From positions 352,001-416,000 of the forward strand of contig JAHPZE010000001.1 in assembly GCA_019058365.1 (NCBI GenBank): DNA of 64,000 nucleotides, read 5' to 3'. The notes beneath the pieces were generated by a model that saw only the letters and a list, made by a program, of their open reading frames with translations, searched no databases and was not told where the DNA came from. Below, piece by piece: positions 1 to 5,853 of the stretch. The DNA comes from Promethearchaeota archaeon (lineage in GTDB: Archaea > Asgardarchaeota > Lokiarchaeia > Sigyniarchaeales > SOKP01). Both the position numbers and the translations under genes were made by a program. Numbering within the stretch: the stretch's first letter is position 1; every line of letters begins with the position of its first letter.

Positions 1-991
1 TATTTTCCATTTCAATTAACTCTACTCCTGGAAGTTGTTTAATTAATTCTCTTGGAACATTATATAACTTATCCGCTAACCGCCCCATCCGACAAGAGTC
101 ATGATATGTCACCTTGATGTCAGAAATAGAAGGGAATCTTACATTTTTGAGAATTTTTTCTTCAAGAAAGAATTCAGAAAAATGCTTCACTTTAAAATCA
201 AAATTGTCTATTATTTTTGGATAATCAAATTTCCAAGTTCTATATCCTTCAGCACATCCAACAATAACAGTTTTTACACCAGCGTTTCTATAAAGCTGAG
301 TGTTATATTCGGCAAACGTTTTAAAAGTTTCAATATCTCCTTTACCCCATAGAACGTCATGTCCACAGCATTTTTCATTTAAAACTACTGGCACAATATC
401 GGCTTCATTAAGTAAACTTATTATTGTAATAGGTATATTAGTATATTTCAAATTTAAATTATAAAATACTTCTTCCATTAAAGGTAAACACCCAATAAAG
501 TAAGCAATCTCTCCAGATTCCGTTGTTTTCAAACCTTCCTCCTTTAAAAATTCTAATTTATTTGGGTTCATCAGATTATCTGCCATTATTCTCCAGATTA
601 GTGGAAAAATTTGATTATGTGTTTCACACTGACTAATTCTATTCATTTGGAGTGGATTATTTCTAGAAATCTTTCTCAATTCTAAAATTAGTTTAGGTAT
701 ATTTATGCCGTCATTTTCTTGACTCATTGGACAATAAATTGTACATTGCCCACAAGTAAGACAATTCCATATGTTATGTTTTTTTACAACTTCTTCCACC
801 GAAGAAAAAATTAAATCCCCTACTAATTTTCGTGGAAAAAACAAGTTTAAGTGCGAAAGTGGACACACATTTACACATCGATTGCAAGCATAACAAAAAT
901 TTGACGTTGCAATGACATTTTTGATGCTTTCGCCTAAAATTTGGCAGTCTGAATTATCAGTTTCAATTTCATGATTAAGATAAGATGACAT
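1..991 (-). CDS. HdrD/GlpC-like Fe-S oxidoreductase (2x[4Fe-4S] plus CCG domains), 3' end runs off the window
   Basis: Not in the ORF track; translated by hand from ATG 991: CYACNRCVNVCP, CLTCGQCTIYCP, YFIGC, EKCCGHD, GCAEG, YHDSCR. Paralog of 59767..61047. Confidence 0.9.
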   Translation of the reverse strand, partial: MSSYLNHEIETDNSDCQILGESIKNVIATSNFCYACNRCVNVCPLSHLNLFFPRKLVGDLIFSSVEEVVKKHNIWNCLTCGQCTIYCPMSQENDGINIPKLILELRKISRNNPLQMNRISQCETHNQIFPLIWRIMADNLMNPNKLEFLKEEGLKTTESGEIAYFIGCLPLMEEVFYNLNLKYTNIPITIISLLNEADIVPVVLNEKCCGHDVLWGKGDIETFKTFAEYNTQLYRNAGVKTVIVGCAEGYRTWKFDYPKIIDNFDFKVKHFSEFFLEEKILKNVRFPSISDIKVTYHDSCRMGRLADKLYNVPRELIKQLPGVELIEMEN

Positions 992-1952: not shown

Positions 1953-2582
1953 ATGGAAGTATTAGAATTAAAACCAATAAACAACAAAAAAATTACTATA
2001 TATTTAATAGATAAAATGAGAATTAACCCTGAACTTAATGATATTGATCTATTAAAGGATTTGATAAATATTAATGATGTTTCTTTTATTACAGTTGAAA
2101 TAAATAATGAAAACTTTAGAGAGTTTAAAAATTCCAATCTTTCAATTATAATAGGTGCTCTAAACTTAGAATATCACTTATTAGATATACCTGAATATGC
2201 GTATGGATATCTTTTTGAAGAGATAAACAAGAAAGAAGAGCAAATTAGAGAGTTATTAACAGAATATAAAAATATGGATGATAAAAACTCTCTTAAAGGG
2301 CTAAATTTAAAATCTTGGATTGATGTTCTTCAAAAGGAAATCAATCATGATAAAAGCATTCTAGAAACAAAAACAAGACCACAATGGATTGTTAAAAAAA
2401 TTTTGGATTTAGTAAGATTACATCAACATGAAGAATTATGTGTTATTCATTTTTTCCATGAAAGAACTTTAGCAGAATTAACTAAACAATTGAGAGAACT
2501 TCATATAGAAGCAATTGTTTATGAATTGAATAATTTTCACAATATCCCATATATAATTATAAAACAAGAGGGGAATAATTAA
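1953..2582 (+). CDS. Hypothetical protein, paralog of the N-terminal domain of the next gene (possible degenerate TraB/ChaN/EreA-like fold)
   Basis: Same MEVLELKP start; aligned motifs FITVE, LLDIPEYA, coiled coil, TRPQWI; TAATG stop/start overlap with the next gene. Confidence 0.75.
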   Translation: MEVLELKPINNKKITIYLIDKMRINPELNDIDLLKDLININDVSFITVEINNENFREFKNSNLSIIIGALNLEYHLLDIPEYAYGYLFEEINKKEEQIRELLTEYKNMDDKNSLKGLNLKSWIDVLQKEINHDKSILETKTRPQWIVKKILDLVRLHQHEELCVIHFFHERTLAELTKQLRELHIEAIVYELNNFHNIPYIIIKQEGNN

Positions 2583-4261
2583 TGGAAGTTTTAGAATTAA
2601 AACCTTTAAAAAAACAAAGTTTAAAATTGGTATTAATAGAAAGTGAGTTTCCAATAGATTGGTGGTTTGAACCCACAGCACAGAAAAAGCATGATTTAGT
2701 ATGGAATTTGCACCTAATTTCCAGGGAATATCTTAATCTGATTGAAAATCTTATAGTTAAATATGACCCTGATTTCGCAATCGAAGAAAAAGGAAGTCGG
2801 TGGGAAGATACAATATCTAACGAAGATCCATTAGAAAAGCTATTTAGAGAAAATAACGTCCCATATAAAATGGTAGATATTTCAGAAAACGCAGAAAATT
2901 ATCTTTCCTCGAATTTAGAGGACCAAAGAGCGCTTATAAAACAATTAATAAAATCAATTGAAGATACTAAAAAGAATAATGAGAAAAAAATTTTAAAAGA
3001 TGAATTTGAATTTCAACGGATGATTTTATGGAAGGAATATTTACAGCAAGAATATAATTTTCAAGAAAATGAGATAAGATATAATGTTCGGGAAGCTTGG
3101 ATGATGATGGGAATTCTAAAATTTGCGAAAAAGATGATAGAAAAAAAGCTAATAGCATTCTTTATCTGTGATTCAAGACACTTTGAAGGAATAAGAAAAT
3201 TAACAGAAGAATTAGGCATCGAAACGGAAGAAATTAAAATTAAAAGGTCTGCAAAAATAATAAATAATCCTGGTTCTAATTCAATCAAAAATATAATTGG
3301 AAAAAGTATACTCGAATTATCTCCGATTAAAGTCAAAAAGAAAGAGTCGTTAGAAAAGATATGTTATTTTTTTGATACCGATGATAATGCTTCTCCTTTC
3401 GATATAAATATGGCTTATGACGCAAGTTTTGATGTAGTTATACCTATTAGCAAGATGACTGCTGATCAAGTACCAAAACTCGTACAAGATGCTATTTTTT
3501 CCCGTAAACCAAAAGCACCTACAACTTTCTTTATCGGTGGCTCAAATGTAAAAGAAGGTGAAAAAATTGCTAAAAAAGTTATTGAATCTTTAGTACCCCC
3601 ATTTGAATGCCCCGTGATAATAGATCCTCGTGGTTCACACACCACAGCTTCTTCTGTAGTTGCGAAAACAATGGAATTTGCTAGAGAACATGATTTATAT
3701 GATTTAAAAGGTAAAAAAGTGGTTGTTTTAGGAGCAGGTCCAGTTGGAAGAATTGCAGCTATTATTGCGGCAAAATTAAATTGTAAAACGTATTTAGTAG
3801 AAACTTGGGAAAAATCGAATGAAGAATTTATAAAACGACTAGTTAAAGAATTAAACGAAGAAGTTGGAGAAAATGAAATTATTGGTGTTTTTGCACCTAA
3901 TGATGAAAAGAAATTAGAAATAGTAAAGAGTGCAGATATTATATGGTCCTTAGCAGCAGTGGGAGTTCAAGTATTATCAAAAGAACTCATGAGCAAATTG
4001 ACAAATAAAATTGTATTAGATATAAATTTAGTACCTCCTTATGGAATTGAGGGATTAAAACCTAAAGATAATAATAAAGAACTTTATCCAACTATAAATG
4101 GAACGGGAGCATTAGCCGTTGGAAGGCTTAAGTCAGAAGTTGAGGCCTCAATTTTAAAAGAAGCAGCAATTACTAAGGGGAAAAGAATTTTTGATTATAA
4201 TGAAGCATTTGAAAAGGCTAAAAATATACTATTTGGAAGGGAAATAAAAATTTCTCATTAA
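2582..4261 (+). CDS. Fusion of an unknown ~250-aa N-terminal domain with an NAD(P)-dependent methylene-H4MPT/H4F dehydrogenase (MtdA/MtdB family)
   Basis: C-terminal half carries FDTDDNASPFDINMAYD, DPRGSHTTA, GKKVVVLGAGPVG, DINLVPPYGIEG and GALAVGRLK, all matching MtdA/B motifs. Confidence 0.85.
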   Translation: MEVLELKPLKKQSLKLVLIESEFPIDWWFEPTAQKKHDLVWNLHLISREYLNLIENLIVKYDPDFAIEEKGSRWEDTISNEDPLEKLFRENNVPYKMVDISENAENYLSSNLEDQRALIKQLIKSIEDTKKNNEKKILKDEFEFQRMILWKEYLQQEYNFQENEIRYNVREAWMMMGILKFAKKMIEKKLIAFFICDSRHFEGIRKLTEELGIETEEIKIKRSAKIINNPGSNSIKNIIGKSILELSPIKVKKKESLEKICYFFDTDDNASPFDINMAYDASFDVVIPISKMTADQVPKLVQDAIFSRKPKAPTTFFIGGSNVKEGEKIAKKVIESLVPPFECPVIIDPRGSHTTASSVVAKTMEFAREHDLYDLKGKKVVVLGAGPVGRIAAIIAAKLNCKTYLVETWEKSNEEFIKRLVKELNEEVGENEIIGVFAPNDEKKLEIVKSADIIWSLAAVGVQVLSKELMSKLTNKIVLDINLVPPYGIEGLKPKDNNKELYPTINGTGALAVGRLKSEVEASILKEAAITKGKRIFDYNEAFEKAKNILFGREIKISH

Positions 4262-4497: not shown

Positions 4498-5853
4498 ATG
4501 TTAGAAAATAAAAAAAAAGAACAGATGAAATTCATTTATCCAGAAACTTTAATTTCTCCAGATGAAATTGAAATTTATGGAAAGGAAGAGAAAGAATTAA
4601 TCCCAGAAACAAATCCATTCGAAATGGCAAAGAAACAAATTGATATTGTTGCCAAAGAGATGTGTTTAAATGATAATATAAAAAAATTCCTTAAAAGGGT
4701 AGAGCGTTCCTTAATTGTATCGATTCCAATCAAAATGGATGATGGAGATCTTGAGATATTCGAGGGATATAGGGTACAACATTCAACCCTTCGTGGTCCT
4801 GGTAAAGGAGGTATTAGATTTGCTCCAAATGTTAATCTTGATGAAGTTAAAGCATTAGCTACTTGGATGACTTGGAAATGTAGCCTATTATGTTTACCTC
4901 TGGGGGGAGCAAAAGGAGGTATATGTGTTGATCCCAAGAAATTATCAAAAAACGAGTTAGAAAGATTAACTCGGAGATATACAACAGAAATAATAAATGT
5001 TATAGGTCCAGATATAGATATTCCTGCTCCAGATGTAAATACTGACCCTCAAATCATGGCTTGGATTATGGATACTTATTCTATGCATAAAGGGAGGGCT
5101 ATTCCTGGAGTTGTAACAGGGAAACCAATAGAAATAGGGGGTTCAGTAGGGAGAGAAACTGCTACTGGAATGGGGTTATTTTTTGTACTCGAAGCGTTAT
5201 GTACTAAAATGAATATAGATCTAAAAACCCAGAGTATTGTTGTACAGGGATTTGGTAATGTTGGGGGAAATATTGCTCAAATTTTATATGATAAAGGCTG
5301 CAAAATAATTGCTGTGTCAGATATAAGTGGAGGTTTATACTCAAATAGAGGATTAAATATTAAAGAATTATTAGAGTGGAGAGATGGGAAAAATTACTTA
5401 AAGGATTTTCAGAATAAAGATTATAATTATATCAGTAATGAGGATATGCTAATGTTAAGATGTGATATTCTAATTCCCGCAGCAATGGAAAACCAAATAA
5501 CGAAAGTAAATGCTAATAATTTAAAATGTAAAGTTGTATTAGAAGGTGCTAATGGCCCAACTACTCCAGAAGCAGACGATATTTTGAAAAAAAAAGGAAT
5601 AATAGTAGTGCCTGATATTCTTGCTAATGCTGGAGGTGTATGTGTCTCTTATTTTGAATATATTCAAGATATTCATAGCTATTTTTGGAAATTAGAAAGA
5701 ATTAATCATGAATTAAAGAATATCCTTGTTAATACATTTGAGAATGTTTACATATTATCAAAAGAAAAGAATGTTACCTTACGAATAGCCTCTTATATGA
5801 TTGCTATTGCAAGATTAGCTAAAGCAATTGAACTGAGAGGAATTTTCCCTTAG
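4498..5853 (+). CDS. gdhA: Glu/Leu/Phe/Val dehydrogenase, most likely glutamate dehydrogenase
   Basis: GPGKGGIRF, GGAKGG, DIPAPDVNT, VQGFGNVG, EGANGP, PDILANAGGV. Confidence 0.93.
   Translation: MLENKKKEQMKFIYPETLISPDEIEIYGKEEKELIPETNPFEMAKKQIDIVAKEMCLNDNIKKFLKRVERSLIVSIPIKMDDGDLEIFEGYRVQHSTLRGPGKGGIRFAPNVNLDEVKALATWMTWKCSLLCLPLGGAKGGICVDPKKLSKNELERLTRRYTTEIINVIGPDIDIPAPDVNTDPQIMAWIMDTYSMHKGRAIPGVVTGKPIEIGGSVGRETATGMGLFFVLEALCTKMNIDLKTQSIVVQGFGNVGGNIAQILYDKGCKIIAVSDISGGLYSNRGLNIKELLEWRDGKNYLKDFQNKDYNYISNEDMLMLRCDILIPAAMENQITKVNANNLKCKVVLEGANGPTTPEADDILKKKGIIVVPDILANAGGVCVSYFEYIQDIHSYFWKLERINHELKNILVNTFENVYILSKEKNVTLRIASYMIAIARLAKAIELRGIFP

What the first reader, a model, noticed from the sequence alone, without database searches (positions are those of the whole stretch)
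1953..3340. MEVLELKP peptide repeated in front of three domains of one operon
Seen: both coupled genes begin MEVLELKP, and 22 of their first 23 nt are identical although the rest of the paralogous domains are very diverged. A third variant (SILELSPIKVKK, ~3305-3340) sits exactly before the Mtd domain. Inference: a short conserved docking, assembly or targeting peptide (for example beta-strand addition into a shared scaffold), or a nucleotide-level element over the start codons.
Basis: partly seen in the sequence, partly recalled or inferred. Interest (0 to 1): 0.72.

Follow-up and report, generated by a model that had tools for sequence, protein, structure and literature searches.

The report
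Conserved leader peptide on Mtd-operon modules
A short peptide (MEVLELKP, then a lysine-rich turn) precedes all three protein modules of a two-gene Lokiarchaeial C1-metabolism operon; selection keeps it at the protein level, not the DNA level, and it is probably a contact arm between modules, though what it binds is not shown.

Summary
ORF1 (1953-2582) and ORF2 (2582-4261, TAATG overlap) both begin MEVLELKP, with 22 of the first 23 nt identical. SILELSPIKVKK (3305-3340) lies 4 residues before the stretch that aligns with bacterial MtdA.

All three copies are conserved in over 100 Lokiarchaeia-type orthologs.

The constraint is on the peptide:
- Synonymous sites vary freely.
- The two start copies keep different Pro codons across species.
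- Codon identity within a genome equals that between genomes.
- Nothing suggests an RNA structure or an Rfam family.

Copies A and B come from duplication of an unnamed alpha/beta domain, weakly TraB/ChaN-like (hhalign E 2e-23, aligned from residue 1). In the AlphaFold2 models the motif lies outside the core, before beta1 (residues 13-20). A third paralog family outside this operon is closer to ORF1, yet has a different leader.

Copy C shares no domain homology with A and B. It stays with Mtd where the fusion is split into two genes, and 105 stand-alone Mtd representatives lack it.

The motif is operon-specific, so it is not a general tag. The best reading is an inter-module or subunit contact arm, which is inferred, not shown.

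First readers of this scan noted the same motif on other genomes. Interest is moderate.

The parts
1953..2582 (+). ORF1, 209 aa. Stand-alone alpha/beta domain with a long helical hairpin. It is a paralog of the ORF2 N-domain and has no Pfam family.
   Evidence: ORF list. No Pfam or NCBIfam hit. 72 orthologous clusters, all Lokiarchaeia-type MAGs. AF2 pLDDT 85. hhalign to the ORF2 N-domain E 2e-23.
1953..1991 (+). Motif copy A: MEVLELKPINNKK, the N-terminal leader of ORF1. It precedes core strand beta1 (residues 13-20).
   Evidence: Near-invariant in 69 orthologs: M68 E69 V67 L68 E65 [LI]66 K67 P63. Non-regular in the AF2 model, block pLDDT 74 against 93 for the next block.
2568..2573 (+). Shine-Dalgarno-like GAGGGG for ORF2, embedded in the last codons of ORF1 (..KQEGNN).
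   Evidence: Read from the sequence. GGAGG-like strings sit upstream of the ORF2 start in the orthologs, whichever junction type they have.
2580..2584 (+). TAATG stop/start overlap of ORF1 and ORF2.
   Evidence: The junction is not conserved among orthologs: 1-nt overlap (TAATG), 13-nt overlap, or gaps of 4 to 29 nt.
2582..4261 (+). ORF2, 559 aa. Unnamed N-domain (residues 1-235), a linker, then an MtdA/MtdB-type NAD(P)-dependent methylene-H4MPT dehydrogenase (residues 258-559).
   Evidence: Pfam Mpt_N 85.5 bits. Foldseek to MtdA 6TLK/1LU9, TM 0.91. phmmer to MtdA E 9e-30. 127 orthologous clusters.
2582..2620 (+). Motif copy B: MEVLELKPLKKQS, the N-terminal leader of ORF2. It precedes beta1 (13-20) and the invariant ESEFP loop.
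   Evidence: L4 and E5 invariant; V3, L6, P8, L9, K10 at least 95% in 113 orthologs. Kept as [TV]LE[LI].P even in distant fused homologs. Non-regular in AF2.
3305..3340 (+). Motif copy C: SILELSPIKVKK (ORF2 residues 242-253), in the linker just before the Mtd domain.
   Evidence: Consensus S-[IVL]-[LI]-E-[LI]-[TSM]-P-I-K-[VI]-K-K-K in 113 orthologs. Residues 244-250 are a beta-strand in the AF2 model. It lies outside the region that aligns with MtdA. It goes with Mtd in split-gene orthologs.
3353..4258 (+). Mtd catalytic region (ORF2 residues 258-559), equivalent to full-length bacterial MtdA.
   Evidence: MtdA residues 3-288 align to ORF2 residues 258-550.

Best explanation
The repeat is a peptide kept by selection on the protein. 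It has the form strand-like h-L-E-[LI]-x-P, then a Lys-rich turn (h-K-x-K), then the first core strand of an alpha/beta module.

Shown:
1. Copies A and B are homologous. They were inherited when the unnamed N-domain was duplicated to give ORF1.
2. They stayed near-invariant while the rest of the domains drifted to 23% identity.
3. The motif lies outside the predicted core fold.
4. Copy C belongs to the Mtd module, not to the preceding domain.
5. The motif is specific to this operon.

Inferred: the arms are contact strands (beta-addition or arm exchange) that hold the modules or subunits of an Mtd-centred assembly together. In the ORF2 model, copy C forms a strand next to an unusually long last strand of the N-domain (214-224). 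By analogy, copy B could pair in trans with the end of ORF1, or with a neighbouring protomer. Which surface each arm binds is unknown.
For: Selection acts on the peptide:
- The residues are near-invariant in 69 and 113 orthologs. Synonymous codons vary at every position.
- The Pro codon is CCA in copy A and CCT/CCG/CCC in copy B in all 13 genomes where both read MEVLELKP. Within-genome codon identity is 70.3% against 70.1% between genomes (permutation P 0.74).

The motif is outside the core:
- Residues 1-12 are non-regular, with block pLDDT 74 and 65 against 93 for the next block. Beta1 is at 13-20 in both models.
- High conservation with lower model confidence is typical of segments that order on binding. 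This is general knowledge and an inference here.

Conservation tracks the operon, not the fold:
- A third paralog family beside an lpdA-like gene is closer to ORF1 (hhalign E 3e-32) than the ORF2 N-domain is (E 2e-23). Its leader reads MNSIMFETLxDNNF.

Copy C is a leader of Mtd:
- Where ORF2 is split into two genes, the Mtd gene keeps ..ILGKKSIIELTPIKIKKKD..KICYFFDTD.
- In one MAG, two tandem stand-alone Mtd genes start MEILKLKS and MELLEIKP.
- 105 stand-alone Mtd representatives have fewer than 13 residues before beta1 and no motif. MtdA aligns only from ORF2 residue 258.

Copy C is modelled as strand 244-250. The preceding N-domain strand is 11 residues long, against 5 for its ORF1 equivalent.

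Operon-specific.
Against: - No tool output shows what any of the arms touches. The strand partner of 244-250 is my inference from strand lengths, and pLDDT there is only about 50-63.
- Distant fused homologs keep copy B although no ORF1-like gene lies next to them. So B cannot exist solely to dock onto ORF1.
- In those homologs copy C is degenerate: strand-like and Lys-rich, but under 8 bits. Three matching copies are therefore a feature of the Lokiarchaeia-type clade only.
- One 3.1-Mb MAG has Mtd genes that carry the motif but no detectable N-domain (the MAG may be incomplete).
- The motif hardly varies, so covariation cannot identify a partner.
Confidence: 0.5

Rival explanations
1. Ordinary cis structural element. 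Each leader packs on its own domain as an N-terminal cap before beta1. Copy C resembles A and B only because a strand-Pro-Lys-rich lead-in suits any Rossmann-like beta1.
For: - A and B are explained by duplication.
- Similar K-P-x-K-x-K-K lead-ins occur before the beta1 of unrelated Rossmann domains in this genome, for example ELKPLKEKKKVMIIGAGPGG at 15 bits.
- Copy C is degenerate in distant fused homologs.
- Copy B persists without an adjacent ORF1.
Against: - The AF2 monomer models do not place residues 1-12 in a regular, confident packing although the residues are near-invariant.
- The closest paralog of ORF1 has the same fold family but a different leader.
- Bacterial and other stand-alone Mtd enzymes fold without any such lead-in.
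- The three copies are 5 bits or more above anything else in the genome.
Confidence: 0.3
2. Shared ligand-binding arm. The Lys-rich leader (KP-h-K-x-KK) contacts the anionic tail of H4MPT or the 2'-phosphate of NADP. It recurs because all three modules handle the same cofactor.
For: - The Lys run directly after the Pro is conserved in all copies.
- The motif sits next to beta1 and, in ORF2, next to the invariant ESEFP loop, where Rossmann-like folds usually bind ligands (general knowledge).
- All modules sit in one Mtd operon.
Against: - MtdA and 105 other stand-alone Mtd representatives lack the arm, and MtdA is a characterised methylene-H4MPT dehydrogenase (PDB titles).
- ORF1 has lost the ESEFP loop and other invariant residues of the ORF2 N-domain, yet keeps the arm.
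- The best-conserved part is the hydrophobic/acidic VLEL, not the lysines.
Confidence: 0.1
3. Nucleotide-level element: an RNA or DNA signal over the start codons, or recent gene conversion between the two 5' ends.
For: - 22 of 24 nt are identical in this genome.
- Across 57 genomes, identical codons between A and B exceed the expectation from bulk codon usage (200 against 162, z 4.4).
Against: - That excess is matched by a start-proximal preference for A/T-rich codons (GAA 98%, TTA 88-93% in B).
- It disappears when within-genome pairs are compared with between-genome pairs (70.3% against 70.1%).
- Val and Pro third positions differ systematically between A and B.
- Copy C uses CTT/CTC where A and B use TTA.
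- The ORF1/ORF2 junction varies from a 13-nt overlap to a 29-nt gap.
- RNA folding z-scores are 0.65, -0.06 and -0.26, and there is no Rfam match over the motifs.
Confidence: 0.02
4. General sorting or targeting tag recognised by a cellular machine, for example for a compartment, a protease or a chaperone.
For: - It is a short, N-terminal, near-invariant peptide on separate polypeptides.
- In the split-gene clade a CDC48-like AAA ATPase gene lies immediately downstream.
Against: - No other ORF in this genome scores near the three copies.
- The exact start pattern occurs at most twice per genome in 41 genomes, and then 629 nt apart.
- Copy C is internal in the fused protein, and in the split-clade Mtd genes it lies 12-21 residues from the start.
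Confidence: 0.04

Closest known systems
MtdA/MtdB, NAD(P)-dependent methylene-tetrahydromethanopterin dehydrogenase (Pfam PF09176 Mpt_N plus a Rossmann domain; PDB 1LU9, 6TLK)
   Same: ORF2 residues 258-559 align with MtdA end to end (28% identity, TM 0.91, E 9e-30). They keep FDTD, SPFD and the GAGPVG nucleotide loop.
   Different: MtdA and 105 other stand-alone representatives start directly at beta1. They have neither copy C nor the 235-residue N-domain. The motif is not part of this family.
N-terminal arm exchange, beta-strand addition and short docking peptides (donor-strand complementation in chaperone-usher pili; docking domains of PKS/NRPS subunits). Analogy from general knowledge.
   Same: A short, highly conserved, strand-like peptide at module boundaries, outside the core fold, on polypeptides encoded in one operon.
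   Different: No partner surface or inter-chain pairing has been shown here. The peptide is not related in sequence to any described docking element. One copy is internal and covalently linked.
TraB/GumN/ChaN (EreA-like) alpha/beta domains, as the possible fold class of the domain that carries copies A and B
   Same: A three-layer alpha/beta core with an inserted helical hairpin. ChaN matches at Z 8.0 over 146 residues. The nearest named ESM Atlas cluster is TraB/GumN at 0.82. The ORF2 N-domain has an invariant R-E-x-W-M, which from memory resembles the R-[DE]-x-x-M of that superfamily.
   Different: No Pfam hit to PF01963 at E <= 1. Tetrapyrrole-methylase N-domains score as high (Z 8.8). Both scores are in the range the tools call non-specific.
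Third paralog family of the same domain (about 199 aa, next to a dihydrolipoyl-dehydrogenase-like gene, Lokiarchaeia MAGs)
   Same: Same domain, and closest to ORF1 (hhalign E 3e-32, 25% identity over residues 8-187).
   Different: Its leader is MNSIMFETLxDNNF instead of MEVLELKP.K.K. It is not in the Mtd operon and is absent from this genome.

Membership tests
MtdA/MtdB (PF09176 Mpt_N + NAD(P) Rossmann) | Mpt_N profile match above Pfam's gathering score | tested here: met
   85.5 bits against a cut-off of 27, ORF2 residues 272-349
MtdA/MtdB (PF09176 Mpt_N + NAD(P) Rossmann) | Full-length fold and sequence match to solved MtdA | tested here: met
   Foldseek 6TLK_A E 1.5e-22, TM (target) 0.91. 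phmmer E 8.7e-30, MtdA residues 3-288 to ORF2 residues 258-550.
MtdA/MtdB (PF09176 Mpt_N + NAD(P) Rossmann) | The LELxP motif is part of the family's domain | tested here: not met
   The motif (242-253) lies before the first aligned residue. None of 105 stand-alone representatives carries it.
MtdA/MtdB (PF09176 Mpt_N + NAD(P) Rossmann) | Methylene-H4MPT dehydrogenase activity with NAD(P) | not testable with these tools
   Needs an enzyme assay
TraB/GumN/ChaN (EreA-like) superfamily, for the ORF1 and ORF2 N-domain | Profile match to PF01963 or a related family | tested here: not met
   No such hit at E <= 1 in Pfam or NCBIfam
TraB/GumN/ChaN (EreA-like) superfamily, for the ORF1 and ORF2 N-domain | Structural match standing clear of unrelated folds | tested here: inconclusive
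   ChaN 2G5G Z 8.0 (146 aligned, rmsd 4.0), against CbiL-type methylases at Z 8.8. Foldseek E 0.075. Atlas 0.82.
Inter-subunit docking or arm-exchange peptides (functional class) | A short conserved peptide lying outside the core fold at a module boundary | tested here: met
   AF2 places beta1 at 13-20 and leaves 1-12 non-regular. Near-invariant residues.
Inter-subunit docking or arm-exchange peptides (functional class) | Demonstrated pairing of the peptide with another chain or module | not testable with these tools
   The tools give no coordinates or contacts. See Tried and rejected.
Nucleotide-level element or gene-conversion tract | Synonymous-site conservation beyond codon bias; homogenisation within genomes | tested here: not met
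   Within-genome identity equals between-genome identity, and the Pro codons are fixed differently in A and B.
Nucleotide-level element or gene-conversion tract | Stable or known RNA structure over the motif | tested here: not met
   Folding z-scores 0.65, -0.06 and -0.26. No Rfam match over the motifs.

The most novel reading that the evidence does not exclude
The LELxP-Lys arm is a portable assembly tag peculiar to Lokiarchaeia-type Asgard archaea. Each of three modules presents the same strand: the stand-alone domain, the Mtd-fused domain and Mtd itself. Together the strands stitch the modules into a defined complex for the methylene-H4MPT step of the archaeal Wood-Ljungdahl pathway. This would explain why the tag survives gene fission, gene duplication and changes of gene junction.
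Probability: 0.25. Interest if true: 0.6.

Novelty: new variant of a known kind. Interest (0 to 1): 0.4.

Why it matters
Lokiarchaeia are thought to run an H4MPT-dependent Wood-Ljungdahl pathway. Their Mtd is a bacterial-type NAD(P) enzyme fused to an uncharacterised domain that also exists as a free paralog. The conserved leader is the one feature shared by all three modules. It therefore gives a direct experimental handle: delete or mutate 6-8 residues, then ask whether the proteins still assemble and whether Mtd still works. If the arms do mediate assembly, this would be a compact natural example of a repeated strand tag that keeps partners together across gene fusion and fission. If they do not, the finding reduces to a well-conserved N-terminal segment inherited by duplication.

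Tried and rejected
- Complex prediction of ORF2 with ORF1, each as an alignment: no verdict. The score was below the mark, no controls were run and no contacts were given. It is not used as evidence either way.
- Foldseek of the ORF1 model against the PDB: nothing at E <= 0.001.
- VIA-align wide: only generic alpha/beta matches and helical-hairpin matches at Z 8-9.
- hhalign of the N-domain against Mtd or Mpt_N: no homology apart from the 10-residue motif (E 0.06-0.09). The three modules are therefore not three copies of one domain.
- Covariation between the motif and possible partner strands: not feasible, because the motif is almost invariant.
- An apparent likeness between the ORF1 tail (..IIKQEE) and the segment before copy C (..NIIGKS): set aside. 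The KQEE/KQEG codons coincide with the Shine-Dalgarno sequence of ORF2, and the tail differs between clades.
- Test of whether copy B depends on ORF1: five species without an adjacent ORF1 were searched. The matches turned out to be the third paralog family, not ORF1, so ORF1 was not found in those MAGs. Their completeness is not known.
- Literature searches: no paper on the fused domain or the motif turned up. I read only titles and abstracts.
- Taxon names for the distant fused homologs: none on record.
Full report
OBSERVATION. ORF1 (1953-2582, 209 aa) and ORF2 (2582-4261, 559 aa) lie on the + strand, and the ORF1 stop overlaps the ORF2 start (TAATG). Both begin MEVLELKP. Their first 24 nt differ only at the third positions of Val (GTA/GTT) and Pro (CCA/CCT). 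The proteins are otherwise distant paralogs: BLASTP gives 23% identity over 124 residues (E 4e-6), and the family profiles align from residue 1 (1-194 against 1-222, hhalign E 2e-23). ORF2 residues 242-253 read SILELSPIKVKK (nt 3305-3340). ORF2 carries Pfam Mpt_N (85.5 bits). Its residues 258-550 align with bacterial MtdA residues 3-288 (E 9e-30; Foldseek TM 0.91 to 6TLK/1LU9), and Pfam's own Mpt_N match begins at residue 272. The third copy therefore ends 4 residues before the first residue that aligns with MtdA.

NOT CHANCE, AND SPECIFIC TO THIS OPERON. In the six-frame translation of the 4.74-Mb, 29.5% GC genome, [VI]LEL[KS]P occurs five times, three of them here. A 10-position PSSM built from orthologs scores the three copies at 24.7-26.8 bits, and the next ORF in the genome scores 19.4. 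In 41 related genomes the degenerate DNA pattern for MEVLELKP occurs at most twice per genome. Where it occurs twice, the two sites are 629 nt apart. The reversed control pattern never occurs.

CONSERVED IN ORTHOLOGS. ORF1 has 72 and ORF2 127 clusters of relatives, all from Lokiarchaeia-type (Promethearchaeota) MAGs.
- ORF1 family: M-E-V-L-E-[LI]-K-P-[IV]-x-N-K, at least 90% conserved at seven positions.
- ORF2 family: L4 and E5 invariant, and V3, L6, P8, L9, K10 at least 95%.
- Linker: S-[IVL]-[LI]-E-[LI]-[TSM]-P-I-K-[VI]-K-K-K, followed by KICYFFDTD.
The same three copies are seen in 52 of 80 loci analysed (79 fetched from species-representative genomes, plus this window); most others have two because of contig ends or divergent spacing.

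PEPTIDE-LEVEL, NOT DNA-LEVEL. Synonymous codons vary at every motif position among orthologs: GTT/GTA/GTG, TTA/TTG/CTA, GAA/GAG, AAA/AAG and all four Pro codons. Identical codons between A and B do exceed the expectation from bulk codon usage (200 against 162). That excess is matched by a start-proximal preference for A/T-rich codons (GAA 98% at codon 2, TTA 88-93% in B against 52% overall). In the 13 genomes where both copies read MEVLELKP, within-genome codon identity (70.3%) equals between-genome identity (70.1%, permutation P 0.74). The Pro codon is always CCA in A and never CCA in B. So the copies are old and are not being homogenised. Copy C uses CTT/CTC where A and B use TTA. The ORF1/ORF2 junction varies between a 1-nt overlap, a 13-nt overlap and gaps of 4 to 29 nt. 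What is conserved upstream of ORF2 is a GGAGG-like Shine-Dalgarno sequence inside the ORF1 tail. RNA folding of the three sites is no better than shuffles, and Rfam gives nothing over them.

WHERE THE MOTIF SITS. AlphaFold2 models built on family alignments have mean pLDDT 85 for both proteins. They place the first core strand at residues 13-20 and leave residues 1-12 without regular structure. Block confidence is 74 (ORF1) and 65 (ORF2), against 93 for the next block. The motif is therefore a leader before beta1, not the first core strand. In ORF2, copy C is modelled as strand 244-250, at low to moderate confidence, between the N-domain and beta1 of Mpt_N (260-265). The last N-domain strand is 11 residues long (214-224), against 5 (186-190) in ORF1. 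I take this to mean that copy C pairs with that extension, but no coordinates were available to check. The domain carrying A and B is an alpha/beta sandwich with a long helical hairpin. Its best structural matches are generic: CbiL-type methylase N-domains at Z 8.8 and ChaN at Z 8.0. The nearest named Atlas cluster is TraB/GumN at 0.82. These are leads only.

NATURAL EXPERIMENTS.
(1) Gene fission. In one subclade (for example L029, L031-L035, L072-L079), ORF2 is split into an N-domain gene starting M-P-EVLELKPLK and a roughly 330-aa Mtd gene. The N-terminus of that Mtd gene reads ..ILGKKSIIELTPIKIKKKD.SDKICYFFDTD. Copy C therefore belongs to Mtd, and there three separate proteins each carry a copy.
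(2) Tandem Mtd genes. One MAG has two tandem stand-alone Mtd genes starting MEILKLKS and MELLEIKP, plus a third starting MDIPNKKPSKKICYF. No N-domain was detected in its 3.1 Mb. The MAG may be incomplete.
(3) Other Mtd homologs. Among 132 representatives at the 50% clustering level whose alignments reach the N-terminal part of the query, 105 are stand-alone proteins with fewer than 13 residues before beta1, and none has the motif. The strict copy C is confined to the Lokiarchaeia-type fused and split forms.
(4) A third paralog. A family of about 199 aa, next to a dihydrolipoyl-dehydrogenase-like gene, is closer to ORF1 (E 3e-32) than the ORF2 N-domain is. Its leader is MNSIMFETLxDNNF and it aligns only from residue 8. 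This genome lacks it. The identity of the leader thus follows membership of the Mtd operon rather than relatedness of the domain.
(5) Distant fusions. Fused homologs at 35-46% identity in the Mtd part keep copy B, for example MEVLELEPLEGKK, METLELEPLEGKK and LKTLELEPLNEKK. The three whose neighbourhoods I fetched have no ORF1-like gene upstream, and their copy C is only strand-like and Lys-rich. B is therefore the oldest copy, A arose by duplication, and C matches the consensus only in the Lokiarchaeia-type clade.

MECHANISM. Four things are shown: protein-level selection, position outside the core, association with the Mtd operon, and linkage of copy C to Mtd. The rest is inferred: the arms are contact strands between modules or subunits. 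MtdA is described as a homotrimer (my recollection of the structure literature, not checked here), so arm exchange within an oligomer is plausible. The strongest rival is a cis cap whose resemblance in copy C is convergent. A Lys-rich arm that binds the cofactor tail is a weaker rival. DNA/RNA-level and general-tag readings are essentially excluded. Points against a simple 'B docks onto ORF1' model are listed in the Against line.

COMPARISON AND NOVELTY. The Mtd part is a clear member of the MtdA/MtdB family, but the motif is not part of that family. The carrier domain is unnamed, and membership of the TraB/ChaN superfamily is not established. Repeated leader strands resemble known arm-exchange or docking principles only by analogy. 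I found no description of this peptide in two literature searches. First readers of this scan noted the same motif on other genomes, with no follow-up.

VERDICT. This is a real, lineage-specific, protein-level feature with an untested assembly role. Interest is moderate.

Noticed in passing
L029, L031-L035, L043-L048, L057, L066, L072-L079 (e.g. L031:2489-4300): In one Lokiarchaeia subclade the N-domain-Mtd fusion is split into two genes, giving three genes with ORF1. A CDC48-like AAA ATPase gene (..KVRIKDAFKEDAGRGIVRIDP..) follows immediately downstream.
   Followed up: partly
L080:1486-2082, L081, L082 (other genomes); not present in this genome: A third paralog family of the unnamed domain (about 199 aa, 112 clusters) lies directly upstream of a dihydrolipoyl-dehydrogenase-like gene. 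It has its own conserved leader, MNSIMFETLxDNNFSVYL.
   Followed up: partly
L090:931-3123 and L093:1546-2460 (one 3.1-Mb MAG): Three stand-alone Mtd paralogs occur in one genome. Two are in tandem and carry the motif at the very N-terminus. One lacks it and lies next to an indolepyruvate-oxidoreductase-like gene. No N-domain was detected in this MAG.
   Followed up: partly
window 2555-2581: The conserved ORF1 C-terminal residues (..IIKQEGNN, or KQEE in orthologs) coincide with the GGAGG-like Shine-Dalgarno sequence of ORF2. Part of that conservation is probably at the nucleotide level.
   Followed up: partly
window 2639-2656 and 3089-3109 (ORF2 residues 20-25 and 170-176): The ORF2 N-domain has the nearly invariant E20-S21-E22-F23-P24 right after beta1 and the invariant R170-E171-x-W173-M-M-M. 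ORF1 has lost both (IDK.. and R-P-Q-W). ORF1 therefore looks like a non-catalytic paralog of a possibly enzymatic domain.
   Followed up: no
L042:5937-6660, L046:5638-6376: Some genomes carry an extra stand-alone copy of the ORF2-type N-domain (233-238 aa, starting MQVLELERLKNK / MQTLELEPLKNK, with ESEFP intact). It lies directly upstream of a second ORF2-like gene.
   Followed up: no
window 2-991 (-) and 4498-5853 (+): The operon is flanked by a Cys-rich ORF on the minus strand upstream, which by eye looks like an HdrD/GlcF-type protein (family not searched), and by an ORF downstream that by eye and by an earlier first-reader note is a glutamate dehydrogenase (gdhA; family not searched here). 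Neither neighbour is conserved next to the operon in the orthologous loci I looked at.
   Followed up: no
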